Shown one piece after another: positions 1,774-51,884 of a stretch of 64,000 nucleotides of DNA. Each line of letters opens with the position of its first letter. Positions within the stretch are counted from its first letter, which is position 1. The notes under the pieces were generated by a model that saw only the letters and a list, made by a program, of their open reading frames with translations, did not search any database and had not been told where the DNA came from. A program made the translations under genes and the position numbers. This DNA comes from a virus: IMG/VR virus record IMGVR_UViG_3300033512_000125, positions 11,363 through 75,362 of that record. The stretch is one strand, 5' to 3'.

Positions 1774-1951
1774 ATATTATATAAGAATACATGGAAATAG
1801 GGTATTTGAAAATGTTGTATTGGCTAATCACTATGAATTTAATCGTACCTCTATCAATTTTTTTAATAATGTAAGTGGAAATTGGATATTAGTATATTCA
1901 TGTCCTGCAAATTTATCTGAGATTTATAAAATTGAGAAGACTGATGAATAA
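1766..1951 (+). CDS. hypothetical protein
   Basis: 61-aa ORF overlapping both neighbours. Confidence 0.5.
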   Translation: MNKYYIRIHGNRVFENVVLANHYEFNRTSINFFNNVSGNWILVYSCPANLSEIYKIEKTDE

Positions 1952-3161
1952 TTTAGATCCACAATATATAAATCTTGTAAAAGATATTTTAGTAAACGGT
2001 CATTCCAAGGAAGACAGAACGGGAACTGGTACTAAAAGTGTTTTCTCAAGACAAATCAGACATAAAATGTCTGATGGGTTTCCTCTACTTACAACAAAAA
2101 AGATGCCATTTAAAACAATCGTTACAGAACTTCTTTGGTTCTTAAGAGGTGATACAAATATTAAGTATTTGGTTGATAATAATTGTCATATTTGGGATGG
2201 TGATGCTTATAAAAATTATTTAAAGAATTGCACTGAAAATTATAAAACACACAATAAAAATGTTGTTGGAACAGATATACCAGACCATTGGAAAGACAGT
2301 GTTAAATTGGATTTAAGTGAACTATTAACACAAGAAGAATTCATCGACAAAATAAAAACCGATGAAGAGTTTGCTAAGAAGTGGGGTGAGTTAGGTCCAA
2401 TTTATGGTAAGCAATGGAGAAAATGGGGTACAAATAAATTAGAGAGTTTTAGTGGGGTTGATTATGATGGTTGTAAACCAATTTATATTGACCAAATCCA
2501 AAATTCAATTAACCTATTAAAAACTGAACCAGACTCAAGGAGAAATATTATTTCTGCTTGGAATGTGGGTGAGATGAAAGATATGGTTTTACCACCATGT
2601 CATAATTTTTTTCAATTTTACACAAGAAAATTAAATTTTAACACTAGATATAAAATTGGTAAATACCAACCTTACAACATTGAAGGAAAAGTTGAATATA
2701 AAAAGGGATTAAATTATATCACTCAGGAACAATTTGAAGATTTCCATAATTTGGAGATGGATATATTGGGTGTCCCAACCAGAGCAATCTCTTTAATGTG
2801 GAATCAACGTTCAGTAGATACAGGACTTGGTCTTCCTTTTAATATAGCTAGTTATGGTCTCTTATTAGAAATTATAGGTAAAATGGTTAATATGGTTCCA
2901 GATGAACTTATTGGAAATTTAGGTGATACTCATTTATATAATAACCACATCGAACCTATTCAAGAACAATTAGGAAGATCACCCTATAAATTACCAAAAT
3001 TAAATTTTAGTAAATTATTTAACATTGATATTCAAAAATATTCGAATCAATTTAATAATCCATTAGCTTTGGATATGTTTATATCTAGATTAAGTTCCGA
3101 TGATTTTATTCTAGAAGGATATGAATCACACCCAACAATAAAATTACCATTATCTAATTAA
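1944..3161 (+). CDS. thyA: thymidylate synthase
   Basis: DRTGTGT, FPLLTTKK, ELLWFLRG, LGPIYGKQWR, catalytic LPPCH, QRSVDTGLGLPFNIASY, GDTHLY; start placed at MNNLDPQY. Confidence 0.95.
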   Translation: MNNLDPQYINLVKDILVNGHSKEDRTGTGTKSVFSRQIRHKMSDGFPLLTTKKMPFKTIVTELLWFLRGDTNIKYLVDNNCHIWDGDAYKNYLKNCTENYKTHNKNVVGTDIPDHWKDSVKLDLSELLTQEEFIDKIKTDEEFAKKWGELGPIYGKQWRKWGTNKLESFSGVDYDGCKPIYIDQIQNSINLLKTEPDSRRNIISAWNVGEMKDMVLPPCHNFFQFYTRKLNFNTRYKIGKYQPYNIEGKVEYKKGLNYITQEQFEDFHNLEMDILGVPTRAISLMWNQRSVDTGLGLPFNIASYGLLLEIIGKMVNMVPDELIGNLGDTHLYNNHIEPIQEQLGRSPYKLPKLNFSKLFNIDIQKYSNQFNNPLALDMFISRLSSDDFILEGYESHPTIKLPLSN

Positions 3162-11378: not shown

Positions 11379-11484
11379 CAAAAAAATCGTTATATAAATG
11401 CAATCCCTTTGGTAATGCAGAGTAGAACTTTATAAAAGGAGAATGCGCAACTCCGGAGGTTAAGCGATAATTCCTCCATTTTAT

Positions 11485-11556
11485 GTGCTTATAGTTTAAT
11501 TGGAAAAACTTTGAGGTACGATCTCAAGATTATAGGTTCGAATCCTATTAGGCATT
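11485..11556 (+). tRNA. tRNA-Arg(ACG)
   Basis: TTGAG-GTACGAT-CTCAA. Confidence 0.85.
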
Positions 11557-11560
11557 CAAG

Positions 11561-11840
11561 TATTAATTGATGACGTTTATGGACGTTCTTTAGGACGAGA
11601 GTTCGATCCTCTCCAGCTCCACTAATAGTGAGAAAAAATATGGGGCTGTTTGGTTTTGACTATAGTTTAGTAGATAAATCGAGATTAATATTAAAAGTAA
11701 AGGACAACTTTGCAATAGCAGCTTAATAAGCTCATAGCGTTGATGTTGTGTTCGACTTGGTCGCGGTAAAAAGAAGATACAAGGTATAGTCGTTTTATTT
11801 CCCAAGCAATGAGAGTGTAGCGTGATCTACCCAAATTCGA
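11561..11840 (+). ncRNA. ssrA: circularly permuted (two-piece) tmRNA; outer ends approximate
   Basis: 3' acceptor piece GGACGAGAGTTCGATCCTCTCCAGCTCCA (11593-11621) precedes 5' piece GGGGCTG...TTTTGAC (11642); G3.U70; tag frame 11697-11726 VKDNFAIAA*. Confidence 0.88.
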
Positions 11841-11848
11841 ACTTTTAA

Positions 11849-11921
11849 GCCTCTATAGTATAAATGGAAATACAGCTTCCTTCTAAGAAGTATTATACCT
11901 GTTCGAATCGGGTTAGGGGTA
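11849..11921 (+). tRNA. tRNA-Arg(UCU)
   Basis: GCTTC-CTTCTAA-GAAGT. Confidence 0.88.
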
Positions 11922-11930
11922 CAAGTAAAT

Positions 11931-12002
11931 GCGTCTGTCGGCAACGGTAGTCACCAACTCTCCAAAAGTTGAAAAGTGTAGGTTCGAATCCTACCAGGCG
12001 TG
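11931..12002 (+). tRNA. tRNA-Trp(CCA)
   Basis: CAACT-CTCCAAA-AGTTG; G73. Confidence 0.9.
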
Positions 12003-12070
12003 CAAAAATTAATTATTATGAAAAAATTATTAGATGCCTTATAAGTTAATAACTTATAAAAAAGGCAAAA

Positions 12071-12217
12071 ATGAGCAGAACATTCAGAGAAGATCCAAGA
12101 AGACACATTAAAGTACCAGATGGTAAATTTTGGAGAAAATGTAAATGTAATTGGTGTATAAATATACCTTATAGAGATAGATATGGTTTAACCGTTAAAG
12201 AAAATCTATCATTATGA
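12071..12217 (+). CDS. small basic Cys-containing protein (48 aa)
   Basis: MSRTFREDPRRH...CKCNWC; ATGA overlap with the next ORF; below the ORF-track size cutoff. Confidence 0.5.
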   Translation: MSRTFREDPRRHIKVPDGKFWRKCKCNWCINIPYRDRYGLTVKENLSL

Positions 12218-12381
12218 GAATTAAAGATTATACACAAAAAGAGTATAAAAGAGAAGCAGCATTTTATAAATATCCCCCATATTGGGATGAAGGATTAAGA
12301 TTAAAAGGAAGATTACAATCTTTTGAACAAAGAATGTATAAAACTTGGAAACACAATAGAAAAACACAATATAAGTTATGA
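12214..12381 (+). CDS. small basic protein (55 aa)
   Basis: ...RMYKTWKHNRKTQYKL*; ATGA-coupled on both sides. Confidence 0.55.
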   Translation: MRIKDYTQKEYKREAAFYKYPPYWDEGLRLKGRLQSFEQRMYKTWKHNRKTQYKL

Positions 12382-12881
12382 CACAGAAAAAAACATTAGT
12401 AATAGATTCAAGTTATATGCCACGGAGTATTATAAATTCCGAACGTGCTTTTGTAATCTCATATAAAGGAAATGCTGAAATTATATATGAACATAATGAA
12501 AGTTTTGGTTTAGTAAATCCTAATTTGGATATAAAAAAACCATCAATTATTAAAGTTCATAAATATGTAAATCAAAAGTTTCACAAAGTTCCTTTTAGTA
12601 GAGAAAATGTGTTTAAAAGAGATAACTATGAATGTGTTTATTGTGGTTGTTCAAATAGAAAAACATTAACATTAGATCACGTTCATCCAACATCTAAAGG
12701 AGGACAAAATACTTTTGAAAATGTTGTTACTGCTTGTAGATCATGTAATGGTGAAAAAGCAGATTTAACATTACAAGAATGGGGAAAGGATATCCCAGAA
12801 CCAAAACGACCTCATTATCTTATGTTAATGAGAGGATTAGATGAAATACCTAAAGAATGGGAAAAGTTTCTCTTCTTATAA
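12378..12881 (+). CDS. HNH endonuclease (McrA/HNH_5-like)
   Basis: RDNYECVYCG, LTLDHVHP..KGG, NVVTACRSCNGEK. Confidence 0.92.
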   Translation: MTQKKTLVIDSSYMPRSIINSERAFVISYKGNAEIIYEHNESFGLVNPNLDIKKPSIIKVHKYVNQKFHKVPFSRENVFKRDNYECVYCGCSNRKTLTLDHVHPTSKGGQNTFENVVTACRSCNGEKADLTLQEWGKDIPEPKRPHYLMLMRGLDEIPKEWEKFLFL

Positions 12882-49909: not shown

Positions 49910-51109
49910 ATGGAACAAACACAACCTGTAAGTATTGTAACTATTAAACAAAAATCTCCTTTATTTAAAGACGGACAACCTGCAGAACGAATTGAATTAA
50001 TTGAATTAGAGGAAAATGGATTTACTTTAGTATCTCAAAAAGATTTATATCAAGTAGGAGATAAAGCCGTTTATATTCAACCTGATTATAATTTATCTGA
50101 TATTTCTTTATTTGAAGGATTTTTACGTCCTGGAGGAGATGTTTCTAAAAGCATGTTAGGTAAAGTTGAGGGAGTACCACTTCGTATCAGAGCAAAGAAA
50201 TTTAATTTCTCTCGTGAAGGAAGTATTGATCCTGTTTATAGTAATGGGATTTTATTACCAAGAAAAGACGTAGCTGATTATATTTGGAAAAACGATTATA
50301 CAGATGATAACTTATTAATTCATTTTTATCAATTAGATCTTACTAAAGAACTTGGTATTACCAAATGGGAAGAACCTGAAGTACGAGATAAAGCTGGTAA
50401 TAAAGTAGGTGGAGCACGAGTATTTCCTGAAGGGCTTTATAAAACAGATGAAACCAATATCAATAATTTATGGGGTCATCTTGAAAATAAAATTACTTAT
50501 CCTGTTACTTTAATTGGTACTGAAAAAGTTGATGGTTCTAGTATTACTATTGGTGTAAAAAATGGTAAAGGATTTATTTGTTCTCGTAACCAACAATTAG
50601 ACCTTATGGTTAAAAAACATGTTGGTAGACGTGAAAAAACCTTGTTGGAAAAAATAATGTTTTGGACTAATCCAGATTTAAATCTATATAAGGAAGCAGA
50701 AAATGATTCTGATTTTGTTAAATATGGTAAACCTTATTTAGAATTACTAGAGGGATATAATGATGTGGTTTTACGTGGTGAATTAAATGGCTCGCACCTA
50801 AAAGGATCAGGTAATAAAAATAATCCAAGTTCAAAATTACCCCCAAATATCCAATTTTTCGGAATAGATTATATCAAACAAGGAATTAGTGAAAAAGTAG
50901 ATTATAATACTTTTAAATATTTTACTAATAAATTAGGTTTACCAACAGTTAAAGAAATATTTGCTAAAGAATTTAACTCAAAACAAGAAATCGAAGATGA
51001 ATGTAATAAGTTCTTCAAAACCACCCTCACAGAAGGTATTGTGATAAGAACAGAAGATAGTAAATTTTCAGCAAAATTTATGTCATTAGAATATGACAGT
51101 AAAAAATAA
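49910..51109 (+). CDS. RNA ligase (Rnl2/DRB0094-like)
   Basis: TEKVDGSS (motif I KxDG), RGELNG, FFGID, EGIVIR, AKFMSLEY; N-terminal OB-like domain. Confidence 0.85.
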   Translation: MEQTQPVSIVTIKQKSPLFKDGQPAERIELIELEENGFTLVSQKDLYQVGDKAVYIQPDYNLSDISLFEGFLRPGGDVSKSMLGKVEGVPLRIRAKKFNFSREGSIDPVYSNGILLPRKDVADYIWKNDYTDDNLLIHFYQLDLTKELGITKWEEPEVRDKAGNKVGGARVFPEGLYKTDETNINNLWGHLENKITYPVTLIGTEKVDGSSITIGVKNGKGFICSRNQQLDLMVKKHVGRREKTLLEKIMFWTNPDLNLYKEAENDSDFVKYGKPYLELLEGYNDVVLRGELNGSHLKGSGNKNNPSSKLPPNIQFFGIDYIKQGISEKVDYNTFKYFTNKLGLPTVKEIFAKEFNSKQEIEDECNKFFKTTLTEGIVIRTEDSKFSAKFMSLEYDSKK

Positions 51110-51884
51110 AATTATGAAAAAATTTGTAATAGGTGACATACATGGTAATAGAAAGGGTTTGATTCAATGTCTCGAACGCGCTAATTTTGATTATAAAAAT
51201 GATCATTTAATTACACTTGGGGATATTGTTGATAGAGGACCTGAGACTTATGAATGTATTGAAGAACTCCTAAAAATAAAAAATAGAATTGATATTAAAG
51301 GGAATCATGATAAGGTTTGGGAAACATGGATTCATACCGGTTTTCATGAGTTAGATTTTCATCACGGAGCTATTTCTACTATACAGTCATATGTAGATCA
51401 CATTGAAGACGATTTAGGATATAATAGATTTATTAAATATAATAATGGAGGATTGATAACTAATTTATCTAAAATAGATATTCCTAAATCCCATATTAAT
51501 TTTTTTAAAAATCAAGTATATTATTATATAGATGAAGAAAATAGATGTTTTGTTCATGGTGGTTTTGATAGATATGAGTCTATTATAAATCAAGATGAAG
51601 AAAATCTTATTTGGGATAGAAGTTTAGTTAGATCTGTTTTATCTTATAAACCATTTAATGGAGATAAATTTAAAATATTAGATGATTTTAAAGAAATTTA
51701 TGTAGGCCACACACCAACAATATCTTGTGGGTTAGGAATATCTCCCCACTTTCAAGGACCTGTAATTATGATGGATACTGGAGGGGCTTATCCTGAAGGT
51801 AAAGTAACAATAATGAATATAGATACTAAAGAATATTTTCAAAGTGATTTAGGAAATACTCTATATGAAAAATTTTCAAGGTAA
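51093..51884 (+). CDS. metallophosphoesterase (Ser/Thr phosphatase-like)
   Basis: GDIHG, GDIVDRG, GNHD, FVHGG, VGHT, DTG. Confidence 0.9.
   Translation: MTVKNKIMKKFVIGDIHGNRKGLIQCLERANFDYKNDHLITLGDIVDRGPETYECIEELLKIKNRIDIKGNHDKVWETWIHTGFHELDFHHGAISTIQSYVDHIEDDLGYNRFIKYNNGGLITNLSKIDIPKSHINFFKNQVYYYIDEENRCFVHGGFDRYESIINQDEENLIWDRSLVRSVLSYKPFNGDKFKILDDFKEIYVGHTPTISCGLGISPHFQGPVIMMDTGGAYPEGKVTIMNIDTKEYFQSDLGNTLYEKFSR

What the first reader, a model, noticed from the sequence alone, without database searches (positions are those of the whole stretch)
11561..11840. Phage-encoded circularly permuted (two-piece) tmRNA
Seen: the tmRNA 3' module (GGAC, T arm GAGAG-TTCGATC-CTCTC, CAGCTCC-A; 11593-11621) lies upstream of the 5' module (GGGGCTG...TTTTGAC; 11642), separated by a 20-nt spacer. 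The two strands form a 7-bp acceptor stem with the Ala identity pair G3.U70. A tag frame (A)VKDNFAIAA* is at 11697-11726, and no second 3' module follows. Established: permuted tmRNAs are known from alphaproteobacteria, some betaproteobacteria and cyanobacteria, and some mitochondria; Bacteroidota hosts use one-piece tmRNA with GENNYALAA-like tags. Inference: this is an independent permutation in a phage lineage, very compact (about 280 nt), processed along with the neighbouring tRNAs.
Basis: partly seen in the sequence, partly recalled or inferred. Interest (0 to 1): 0.75.

Follow-up and report, generated by a model that had tools for sequence, protein, structure and literature searches.

The report
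Compact two-piece tmRNA in phage
This uncultured large phage, whose closest cultured relative infects Flavobacterium, carries a real back-to-front (two-piece) gene for tmRNA, the RNA that rescues stalled ribosomes; phage two-piece tmRNAs are already known, but this one belongs to a small, stripped-down lineage that fits none of the three bacterial types and probably arose separately.

Summary
Observation confirmed. Rfam's general permuted-tmRNA model hits 11575-11726 (+) at 61.8 bits (threshold 47). No matching 3' module lies downstream.

Ten further sequence variants in related uncultured phages share the layout. In nine aligned members the G3.U70 pair is invariant and the T stem, acceptor stem and helix 2 covary. 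The 9-codon tag is conserved with synonymous changes.

The gene sits in a tRNA array between tRNA-Arg(ACG) and tRNA-Arg(UCU). tRNA-processing enzymes can plausibly release a 64-nt acceptor piece and a coding piece of up to 207 nt. No SmpB or CCA-adding enzyme is encoded, so host factors are needed.

The novelty was overstated: phage two-piece tmRNAs are published. It is still a distinct variant:
- The alpha, beta and cyanobacterial models all fail, whereas a pelagiphage control scores 83.8 bits on the alpha model.
- Pseudoknot 1 is replaced by an intermolecular helix.
- The tRNA-like domain resembles Bacteroidia and flavobacterial-phage one-piece tmRNAs.
- Sister phages carry one-piece tmRNA.
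- None of 151 sampled Bacteroidota genomes has a permuted form.

An independent permutation is plausible (about 0.6) but unproven. Processing, alanylation and tagging are untested. This scan noted the same kind of lineage earlier on other genomes.

The parts
11485..11557 (+). tRNA-Arg(ACG); its 3' processing would create the 5' end of the acceptor piece
   Evidence: ARAGORN; Rfam tRNA 52.5 bits. The same neighbour is found in L070, L072 and L075.
11558..11621 (+). Acceptor piece (64 nt; CCA not encoded). Contains the 5' tail, the 3' strands of helix 2, the T arm, the acceptor 3' strand and discriminator A.
   Evidence: RF04321 alignment. A family profile built from six members finds it in all relatives. 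Covariation.
11560..11568 (+). Tail helix, 5' strand (GTATTAATT). Pairs with 11683-11691.
   Evidence: RNAalifold: 9 pairs, none broken in nine members, with only one-sided G-U/A-U/G-C changes. A near-identical contig in run X2 has changes at three paired positions (11560, 11565, 11687) that all keep the pair.
11576..11593 (+). Helix 2, acceptor-piece strands: 2b at 11576-11580 pairs with 11674-11678; 2a at 11587-11593 pairs with 11660-11666.
   Evidence: In helix 2a five pairs show changes on both sides across members.
11597..11613 (+). T arm (5-bp stem, 7-nt loop TTCGATC)
   Evidence: All five pairs covary.
11614..11620 (+). Acceptor stem, 3' strand (CAGCTCC). Includes U70 of the G3.U70 pair.
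11622..11641 (+). Intervening spacer, predicted to be discarded
   Evidence: Not conserved. It is 20-79 nt in most relatives and 492 nt with a 108-codon ORF in L051.
11642..11848 (+). Coding piece (up to 207 nt). Contains the acceptor 5' strand, a D-loop-like GGTTTTGAC, the 5' strands of helix 2, the tail-helix partner, the tag ORF and the 3' domain.
11683..11691 (+). Tail helix, coding-piece strand (GATTAATAT). It occupies the place of pseudoknot 1, 5 nt before the resume codon.
   Evidence: The model's 14-position element right after helix 2, which I read as the PK1 hairpin, is deleted in the window's RF04321 alignment and present in the pelagiphage control.
11697..11729 (+). Tag reading frame VKDNFAIAA (resume codon GTA at 11697) followed by two in-frame stops, TAA TAA
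   Evidence: GTA aligns with GCA (Ala) in L147 and L212. Tags in relatives: VKDNFAIAA, VKGNFAIAA, VKDNFAFAA, VKDNFAYAA, ANGNFAIAA, ANGNFALAA.
11730..11848 (+). 3' domain of the coding piece. It is expanded and divergent compared with relatives. A helix-5-like hairpin with a CAAGG loop lies near 11775-11795. The terminal hairpin is decayed.
   Evidence: Alignments. A contig of run X1 covers 11688-12100 with 4 differences, so this is not an assembly artefact.
11849..11922 (+). tRNA-Arg(UCU). RNase P cleavage at its 5' end would create the 3' end of the coding-piece precursor.
   Evidence: A tRNA-Arg gene follows the tmRNA in all 11 variants: UCU in 9 by ARAGORN, ACG in L071 by ARAGORN and ACG in L212 read by eye.

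Best explanation
The locus 11558-11848 is a functional gene for a minimal two-piece tmRNA. It is transcribed as part of the phage's tRNA array. Inferred processing: 3' trimming of tRNA-Arg(ACG) frees the 5' end of a 64-nt acceptor piece. An RNase Z-type cut after discriminator A11621, followed by host CCA addition, makes its 3' end. RNase P cuts before G11642. RNase P at tRNA-Arg(UCU) ends the coding piece. The 20-nt spacer is lost. The two RNAs stay together through about 28 base pairs: the acceptor stem, helix 2a, helix 2b and a 9-bp tail helix. That tail helix sits where pseudoknot 1 lies in ordinary tmRNA and ends 5 nt before the resume codon. Host alanyl-tRNA synthetase would charge it through G3.U70. 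Host SmpB and EF-Tu would deliver it to stalled ribosomes, and translation would resume at GUA to add (A)VKDNFAIAA, a degradation-type tag. Likely benefit to the phage (speculative): it keeps ribosomes recycling while host RNA synthesis is shut down or mRNAs and tRNAs are being cut, alongside its 23 tRNAs and an RNA ligase/phosphatase pair. Shown: the sequence anatomy, covariation, tag conservation, synteny, and the absence of phage SmpB and CCA-adding enzyme. Inferred: all processing steps, charging, tagging and the benefit. Ancestry: most likely derived from a Bacteroidia or flavobacterial-phage one-piece tmRNA, that is, a permutation event separate from the three bacterial ones (about 0.6).
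For: - RF04321 scores 61.8 bits against a threshold of 47.
- Ten further variants have the same order of parts inside tRNA arrays.
- In nine aligned members G3.U70 and the first two acceptor pairs never vary, while acceptor positions 5-7, the whole T stem and helix 2a covary.
- The tag frame and stop are conserved, with 26 synonymous against 22 non-synonymous pairwise codon differences; the last four residues stay A-x-A-A with a hydrophobic x.
- The spacer is unconserved in length and sequence, 20 to 492 nt.
- The consensus scan found no terminator-like site on the + strand between 9525 and 15300 and no excess of promoter-like sites.
- No SmpB (PF01668) or CCA-adding enzyme (PF01743) is found in this record or in two complete relatives that carry the gene.
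- A review states that a small stable hairpin can replace PK1 and that two-piece tmRNAs work with fewer pseudoknots (PMC3968760).
- Ancestry, model scores: the alpha model gives no hit, the cyano model 36 of 70 bits and the beta model 35.8 of 84 bits. The pelagiphage HTVC008M gene scores 83.8 on the alpha model.
- Ancestry, profile scores: the 3' half of the family's tRNA-like domain scores mostly 8-24 bits (lowest 3-4, highest 23.9) against the Bacteroidia profile and mostly 5-22 bits (lowest 0.6) against the flavobacterial-phage one-piece profile. Against other members of the sampled phylum it scores 0-10 bits, and HTVC008M scores about 0.
- Ancestry, Bacteroidia-like features: GGTTTTGACA, CCA usually not encoded, 9-codon tags.
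- Ancestry, distribution: sister phages G015 and G019 carry one-piece tmRNA like that of Cellulophaga phage Calle. None of 151 sampled Bacteroidota genomes has a permuted form and 38 of 41 have the standard one.
Against: - There is no direct evidence of transcription, cleavage, charging or tagging.
- The resume codon is GUA (Val) rather than the usual GCN.
- No pseudoknot at all is present, which is unusual for an active tmRNA.
- The window's own 3' domain carries a 54-nt insertion and a decayed terminal hairpin compared with relatives.
- ARAGORN misses the gene.
- The gene is sporadic: the RF04321 scan found it in only 2 of 7 complete related genomes, and that scan misses members such as G038, so it is dispensable.
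- For ancestry: only about 120 nt are comparable; AT bias and co-adaptation to host SmpB and AlaRS could mimic Bacteroidia features; I compared beta and cyanobacterial types only through Rfam models, not sequence by sequence.
Confidence: 0.75

Rival explanations
1. It is a decoy rather than a working tmRNA. The tRNA-like domain soaks up host SmpB, or is charged without tagging, and so blocks host trans-translation, as proposed for the TLD-only gene of mycobacteriophage DS6A.
For: All pseudoknots are lost and the resume codon is not Ala. The DS6A precedent is cited in PMC4131195 and PMC11915505. One relative, L150, keeps only the acceptor piece.
Against: The tag frame, its length, its A-x-A-A end and its stop codon are conserved across the family with many synonymous changes. 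The 5' half and the helices that position the resume codon covary. A pure decoy would not need them.
Confidence: 0.08
2. The window's copy is a decaying pseudogene of an otherwise functional family.
For: Its 3' domain has a 54-nt insertion and lacks the terminal hairpin that relatives share. ARAGORN does not call it.
Against: The tRNA-like domain, all helices and the tag are intact, and it has the highest RF04321 score of the family. Near-identical copies occur in two other runs; the one that spans the helices (X2) has only pair-preserving substitutions there. Relatives swap the region after the stop codon, so that region seems loosely constrained.
Confidence: 0.07
3. Ancestry rival: the gene was captured from a bacterium or phage that already had an alpha-, beta- or cyanobacterial-type permuted tmRNA and was then stripped down. 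In that case there was no new permutation event.
For: Aquatic myophages are known to carry and exchange such genes (PMC9004378). The beta model aligns end to end at 35.8 bits and the cyano model aligns to the tRNA-like domain at 36 bits. The A-N-x-N-F-A start of some tags (L147, L212) resembles proteobacterial tags.
Against: All three lineage models fall far below threshold, while the general model scores much higher; the database paper reports the reverse for known permuted tmRNAs on average. The control phage gene is plainly alpha-type. CCA is not encoded and the D-loop and tag length are Bacteroidia-like. The profile scores point to Bacteroidia and flavobacterial-phage one-piece tmRNA.
Confidence: 0.3

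Closest known systems
Phage-encoded two-piece tmRNAs of marine T4-like myophages (Pelagibacter phage HTVC008M, Methylophilales phage Melnitz; PMC9004378)
   Same: A permuted ssrA gene on a large myophage genome: acceptor piece first, then a spacer, then the coding piece with a short tag ending in AA. No phage SmpB was found here.
   Different: The marine genes are clearly alpha-type. HTVC008M scores 83.8 bits on RF01849, encodes CCA, keeps what I read as the PK1 hairpin and has the 10-codon tag ANFNEYALAA. The window's gene gets no alpha hit, encodes no CCA, has no PK1, lies inside a tRNA array and belongs to phages related to a Flavobacterium phage.
Bacterial two-piece tmRNAs of Alphaproteobacteria, some Betaproteobacteria and Cyanobacteria (RF01849, RF01850, RF01851; merged model RF04321)
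   Same: Circular permutation of the gene; a tRNA-like domain formed by two RNAs; a reduced number of pseudoknots; matched by the merged model above threshold.
   Different: All three lineage models fail. From my own knowledge of those structures, which I did not test here, they keep PK1 and join the coding-piece 3' end to the acceptor-piece 5' end. Here the acceptor-piece 5' tail pairs just upstream of the resume codon, and I found no significant closing helix.
One-piece tmRNA of flavobacterial phages (Cellulophaga phage Calle, phi38:1; uncultured G015 and G019) and of Bacteroidia hosts
   Same: The GGTTTTGACA motif after the acceptor stem, a near-identical T arm, CCA not encoded, the same CTAA-like trailer after the discriminator, and a 9-codon host tag of the form x-x-N-N-Y-A-L-A-A.
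   Different: Those are contiguous RNAs of 350-400 nt with PK1 to PK4. The phage ones have tags of 25 or more codons.
Engineered E. coli tmRNA with PK1 replaced by a hairpin (Tanner et al. 2006, as reviewed in PMC3968760)
   Same: A simple stable helix in place of PK1, between helix 2 and the resume codon.
   Different: That one is a laboratory construct made in cis. Here the helix is natural and is formed between the two RNA pieces.

Membership tests
tmRNA (SsrA), any gene form | tRNA-like domain: 7-bp acceptor stem, T arm, D-loop-like GAC segment, no anticodon arm | tested here: met
   Acceptor and T stems covary in nine members.
tmRNA (SsrA), any gene form | G3.U70 alanine identity pair with discriminator A | tested here: met
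   Present in the window. Invariant in the nine aligned members and read directly in the L040 and L212 sequences.
tmRNA (SsrA), any gene form | Internal tag frame without a start codon, ending in a hydrophobic A-A terminus and a stop | tested here: met
   VKDNFAIAA followed by TAA TAA. Conserved, with synonymous changes.
tmRNA (SsrA), any gene form | Pseudoknot 1 upstream of the resume codon (typical, not universal) | tested here: not met
   The 14-position element I read as the PK1 hairpin is deleted in the RF04321 alignment. Only 17 nt separate helix 2 from the resume codon, and 9 of them form the tail helix.
tmRNA (SsrA), any gene form | Alanylation, SmpB binding and trans-translation activity | not testable with these tools
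   No phage SmpB is found. Host SmpB is assumed.
Permuted (two-piece) tmRNA, RF04321 | 3' half of the tRNA-like domain upstream of the 5' half on one strand, with no 3' module downstream; score above the gathering threshold | tested here: met
   61.8 bits against 47. The matching 3' module is unique in the window.
Permuted (two-piece) tmRNA, RF04321 | Mature RNA exists as two base-paired pieces, with the spacer removed | not testable with these tools
   Only assembled contigs were available, and these cannot show RNA ends.
Alphaproteobacterial type, RF01849 | Score of at least 50 bits on the lineage model | tested here: not met
   No hit at E up to 10. The control HTVC008M scores 83.8 bits.
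Cyanobacterial type, RF01851 | Score of at least 70 bits on the lineage model | tested here: not met
   36 bits, tRNA-like domain only.
Betaproteobacterial type, RF01850 | Score of at least 84 bits on the lineage model | tested here: not met
   35.8 bits.
Standard one-piece tmRNA, RF00023 | Contiguous order: 5' half, tag, pseudoknots, 3' half | tested here: not met
   Only a 5'-truncated 31.8-bit match to the 3' half, at 11540-11624.

The most novel reading that the evidence does not exclude
This is a fourth, separate circular permutation of the tmRNA gene. It arose inside the tRNA arrays of phages that infect Bacteroidota, from a one-piece Bacteroidia or flavobacterial-phage tmRNA. It produced the smallest known tag-encoding tmRNA design: no pseudoknots, with an intermolecular helix standing in for PK1. 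Its ends are made entirely by the processing of flanking tRNAs, and it works with the SmpB of a host that itself uses one-piece tmRNA.
Probability: 0.5. Interest if true: 0.65.

Novelty: new variant of a known kind. Interest (0 to 1): 0.5.

Why it matters
It would give a natural minimal design for a tag-encoding tmRNA: about 64 nt plus 90-200 nt and no pseudoknots. That bears on the old question of what PK1 and the pseudoknot ring are for. It would also be a further case of gene permutation in this RNA, in a setting (a tRNA array) that explains how both new ends get processed.

For annotation, ARAGORN and the three lineage models miss or mis-call these genes; only the merged Rfam model finds them. 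For phage biology, it adds ribosome rescue to the translation kit of tRNA-rich phages of Bacteroidota.

Tried and rejected
- **Closing helix.** I tested for a helix between the coding piece's 3' domain and the internal loop of the acceptor piece (GACGT with ACGTC). Duplex energies are no better than shuffles, with z between -2.4 and +1.6. A few members (L072, L212) show long matches, so I leave it as unsupported.
- **Expression.** No public run holds more than 29% of the sampled words. All four runs I laid are assembled contigs, which cannot show RNA ends, strand or level. Contigs of relatives of the tag region and acceptor piece do occur in one wastewater RNA library (X8), but DNA carry-over cannot be excluded. 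This is not evidence of transcription or of habitat.
- **Close copies in GenBank phages.** blastn found none at E 1e-5. At E 1 there were only weak matches over the T arm, acceptor strand and trailer, to the one-piece tmRNA of Cellulophaga phages.
- **Family pattern scans.** No hits in 185,579 species-representative genomes, 5 viral contigs and 8 metagenome contigs.
- **Loose pattern.** A loose 5'-tail pattern gave 60 viral loci, of which the family profile confirmed only the known members plus L147 and L150.
- **ARAGORN on relatives.** It mis-called L072, with wrong extent and a nonsense tag.
- **Homology of the 5' tail.** The acceptor-piece 5' tail may be homologous to the conserved GTATAAAGTTGTATTGA that lies upstream of the tRNA-like domain in phage one-piece tmRNAs. 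This adds only about 6 bits and is AT-rich, so it is suggestive only.
- **Papers not held.** Two older papers on two-piece tmRNA (PMC516066, PMC16621) are not in the library.

Full report
**1. The observation**

The sequence at 11558-11848 contains, in this order on the + strand:
- GGAC (11593-11596)
- a T arm (11597-11613)
- CAGCTCC (11614-11620)
- discriminator A (11621)
- a 20-nt spacer
- GGGGCTG (11642-11648)
- a D-loop-like TTTGGTTTTGAC
- further on, the frame GTA AAG GAC AAC TTT GCA ATA GCA GCT TAA TAA (11697-11729)

The two 7-mers form a 7-bp acceptor stem with G3.U70. Rfam 15's merged model for permuted tmRNA (RF04321) matches 11575-11726 at 61.8 bits, against a gathering score of 47, with E 1.5e-9 for the window.

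The standard model RF00023 finds only the 3' half, as a 5'-truncated 31.8-bit match. A T arm followed by an acceptor strand that fits GGGGCTG occurs once in the 64-kb window, upstream of the 5' module. ARAGORN lists 23 tRNAs but no tmRNA.

The locus fills the gap between tRNA-Arg(ACG) (11485-11557) and tRNA-Arg(UCU) (11849-11922).

**2. Relatives**

The window is part of a 90-kb IMG/VR virus record that is about 56% complete. GC content is about 25%.

I fetched related viral contigs through the neighbouring HNH endonuclease gene and scanned them with RF04321. I then used a family profile and pattern scans of the viral and metagenome collections. Together these gave ten further sequence variants:
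- L070
- L071, which is identical to L073
- L072
- L074
- L075
- L038
- L147
- L051
- L040
- L212

All ten have the acceptor piece first, then a spacer, then the coding piece. All sit in tRNA arrays, and a tRNA-Arg gene follows the tmRNA in all 11 variants (window included). It is UCU in 9 and ACG in L071 by ARAGORN. For L212 I read ACG by eye from the sequence.

The acceptor stems differ but stay complementary: GGGGCTG, GGGGAGG, GGGGTTG, GGGGTAG, GGGGTAT, GGGGATG, GGGGCCG, GGGGGTG, GGGTCAG and GGGATCG, each with its matching 3' strand. G3.U70 is always kept.

RNAalifold on nine members predicts 37 pairs, 13 of them with changes on both sides. My own count on a spacer-free alignment gives 17 of 38.

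**3. Anatomy**

The consensus structure is one long irregular helix capped by the tRNA-like domain. In window coordinates its parts are:
- acceptor stem, 11614-11620 with 11642-11648
- T arm
- helix 2a, 11587-11593 with 11660-11666
- helix 2b, 11576-11580 with 11674-11678
- a 9-bp tail helix between the 5' end of the acceptor piece (11560-11568) and 11683-11691 of the coding piece

The tail helix ends 5 nt before the resume codon. It takes the place of pseudoknot 1. The model's 14-position element right after helix 2, which I read as the PK1 hairpin, is simply absent in the window's alignment. It is present in the pelagiphage control.

The resume codon is GTA in five members. It aligns with GCA in L147 and L212. 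In L051 a GCA codon lies one codon further upstream. The tags are VKDNFAIAA, VKGNFAIAA, VKDNFAFAA, VKDNFAYAA, ANGNFAIAA, ANGNFALAA, (R)RNNNFALAA, AINSNLKLAA and VNGEYAIAA. Among the six closest members there are 26 synonymous and 22 non-synonymous pairwise codon differences.

After the stop codon, relatives share a covarying hairpin with a C(A/T)AGG loop, an invariant ACGT (CGT invariant in every member) and a terminal hairpin with an AACG(A/T)A loop core. The window keeps a version of the first hairpin. It also has a 54-nt insertion and a decayed terminal hairpin.

A contig in run X1 covers 11688-12100 with four differences. A contig in run X2 covers 11472-11727 with eight differences and diverges right after the stop codon. 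Its changes in helices (at 11560, 11565, 11575 and 11687) all keep the pair. The 3' domain is therefore real but loosely constrained and is exchanged between relatives.

**4. How it most likely works**

A permuted precursor cannot be charged unless the acceptor 3' end is freed, so processing is obligatory. The flanking tRNAs supply the outer ends. The acceptor/T-arm minihelix is the usual substrate for RNase P (before G11642) and for an RNase Z-type cut after A11621.

CCA is not encoded. It is also not encoded in the neighbouring tRNA-Arg(ACG) gene or in most of the sampled Bacteroidia tmRNA genes.

No SmpB and no CCA-adding enzyme are encoded in this record or in two complete relatives, so host factors are required.

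The consensus scan found no terminator-like site on the + strand between 9525 and 15300 and no excess of promoter-like sites. This is weak evidence for co-transcription.

A review reports that PK1 can be replaced by a small stable hairpin, that two-piece tmRNAs function with fewer pseudoknots, and that ClpX reads the C-terminal LAA (PMC3968760). The tail helix is a natural candidate for that stabilising role. All of these steps are inferences.

**5. Who carries it**

The closest cultured phage is Flavobacterium phage vB_FspM_immuto. The baseplate wedge protein is 47-50% identical and the primase 41%. A tail protein carries an SprB repeat. These two points suggest, but do not prove, a Bacteroidota host.

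Immuto itself has no tmRNA. Baseplate wedge identity to the window, with the tmRNA form carried, is as follows:

| Record | Wedge identity | tmRNA form |
|---|---|---|
| G002, G003 | 67-68% | two-piece |
| G051 | 47% | two-piece |
| G038 | 42% | two-piece |
| G015, G019 | 45-46% | one-piece |

The one-piece genes of G015 and G019 are 360-368 nt. They are homologous to the annotated tmRNA of Cellulophaga phage Calle. Both gene forms therefore occur in one phage clade, and the gene is sporadic: the RF04321 scan found the two-piece form in only 2 of 7 complete genomes, and that scan misses members such as G038.

**6. Comparison with what is known**

Phage two-piece tmRNAs are published. PMC9004378 reports that ARAGORN suggested 53 of 133 unique phage tmRNAs to be two-piece. 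These were mostly marine, and the paper places them in the alpha, beta/gamma and cyanobacterial lineages. The 2025 tmRNA database sorts every permuted gene into alpha, beta or cyano types.

Scores on the Rfam models:

| Gene | General permuted (RF04321) | Alpha (RF01849) | Cyano (RF01851) | Beta (RF01850) |
|---|---|---|---|---|
| Pelagibacter phage HTVC008M (control) | 90.6 | 83.8 | not tested | not tested |
| This window | 61.8 | no hit | 36 (needs 70) | 35.8 (needs 84) |

The control also encodes CCA and has what I read as the PK1 hairpin.

In a sample of Bacteroidota genomes, none of 151 has a permuted tmRNA and 38 of 41 have the standard form. The family pattern is absent from 185,579 representative genomes.

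Sampled Bacteroidia tmRNAs share with the phage family the motif GGTTTTGACA, a nearly identical T arm, the usual absence of encoded CCA, and 9-codon tags such as GENNYALAA. The Bacteroides tag GETNYALAA is confirmed in a preprint.

Profile scoring points the same way. The family's 3' tRNA-like half scores mostly 8-24 bits (lowest 3-4, highest 23.9) against the Bacteroidia profile. It scores mostly 5-22 bits (lowest 0.6) against the flavobacterial-phage one-piece profile. Against the rest of the sampled phylum it scores 0-10 bits. The alpha-type control scores about 0 against the first two. The trailer after the discriminator (CTAAT...) also resembles that of Calle.

**7. Verdict**

The object is a genuine permuted tmRNA gene of a small family that is under selection. 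It is not new as a category. It is a distinct variant:
- it has no pseudoknots
- an intermolecular helix replaces PK1
- its ends are set by a tRNA array
- it is carried by phages whose probable hosts use one-piece tmRNA

A separate permutation event is the better-supported ancestry, at about 0.6. The comparable sequence is short and AT-biased, and I could compare the beta and cyanobacterial types only through their models.

Two earlier notes of this scan, on other genomes (e1-3440233 and e1-3441539), describe a compact, pseudoknot-free two-piece tmRNA lineage in phages of Bacteroidota. My results agree with them but were obtained independently on this window.

Noticed in passing
L051:4523-5014 (spacer), ORF at L051:4709-5035: In one relative (G038) the tmRNA intervening segment is 492 nt long and holds a 108-codon ORF that runs into the start of the coding piece. 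Earlier notes of this scan report genes inside phage tmRNA spacers in other lineages.
   Followed up: partly
L051:8670-9157: A GOLLD RNA (RF02032, 152 bits, threshold 150) lies in the tRNA array of a related phage.
   Followed up: no
L150:749-812: An orphan acceptor piece (49 bits on the family profile) lies after tRNA-Arg(ACG), with no detectable coding piece within the next 300 nt. It may be a remnant or a TLD-only form.
   Followed up: partly
window 12378-12881; L072 (record G037): An HNH endonuclease gene lies next to the tRNA array. A 100% identical protein is encoded in record G037, whose tmRNA is a different variant (GGGGTAG, tag VKDNFAFAA). This suggests a mobile gene or recombination within the array.
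   Followed up: partly
L159:1501-1868 (G015), L160:1501-1860 (G019), L198:371-732 (Cellulophaga phage Calle): A family of one-piece phage tmRNAs has unusually long tag frames (about 25 codons or more, ending VAVAA or LAAA in the two uncultured phages). It is shared between uncultured immuto-like phages and cultured Cellulophaga phages. In phi38:1 and phi40:1 the gene is unannotated.
   Followed up: partly
window 49910-51884: An RNA ligase (phrog_968) sits beside a NinI-like phosphatase/phosphoesterase (phrog_246). This is a possible RNA-repair pair that would fit a translation-maintenance role together with the tRNAs and tmRNA.
   Followed up: no
window 1932-3161: The thymidylate synthase is 409 aa and matches the Pfam domain in two stretches, which suggests a large insertion.
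   Followed up: no
L071:1710-1801 (- strand): A tRNA-like 3' end (T arm plus acceptor strand) lies directly upstream of the tmRNA. ARAGORN does not call it as a tRNA.
   Followed up: no
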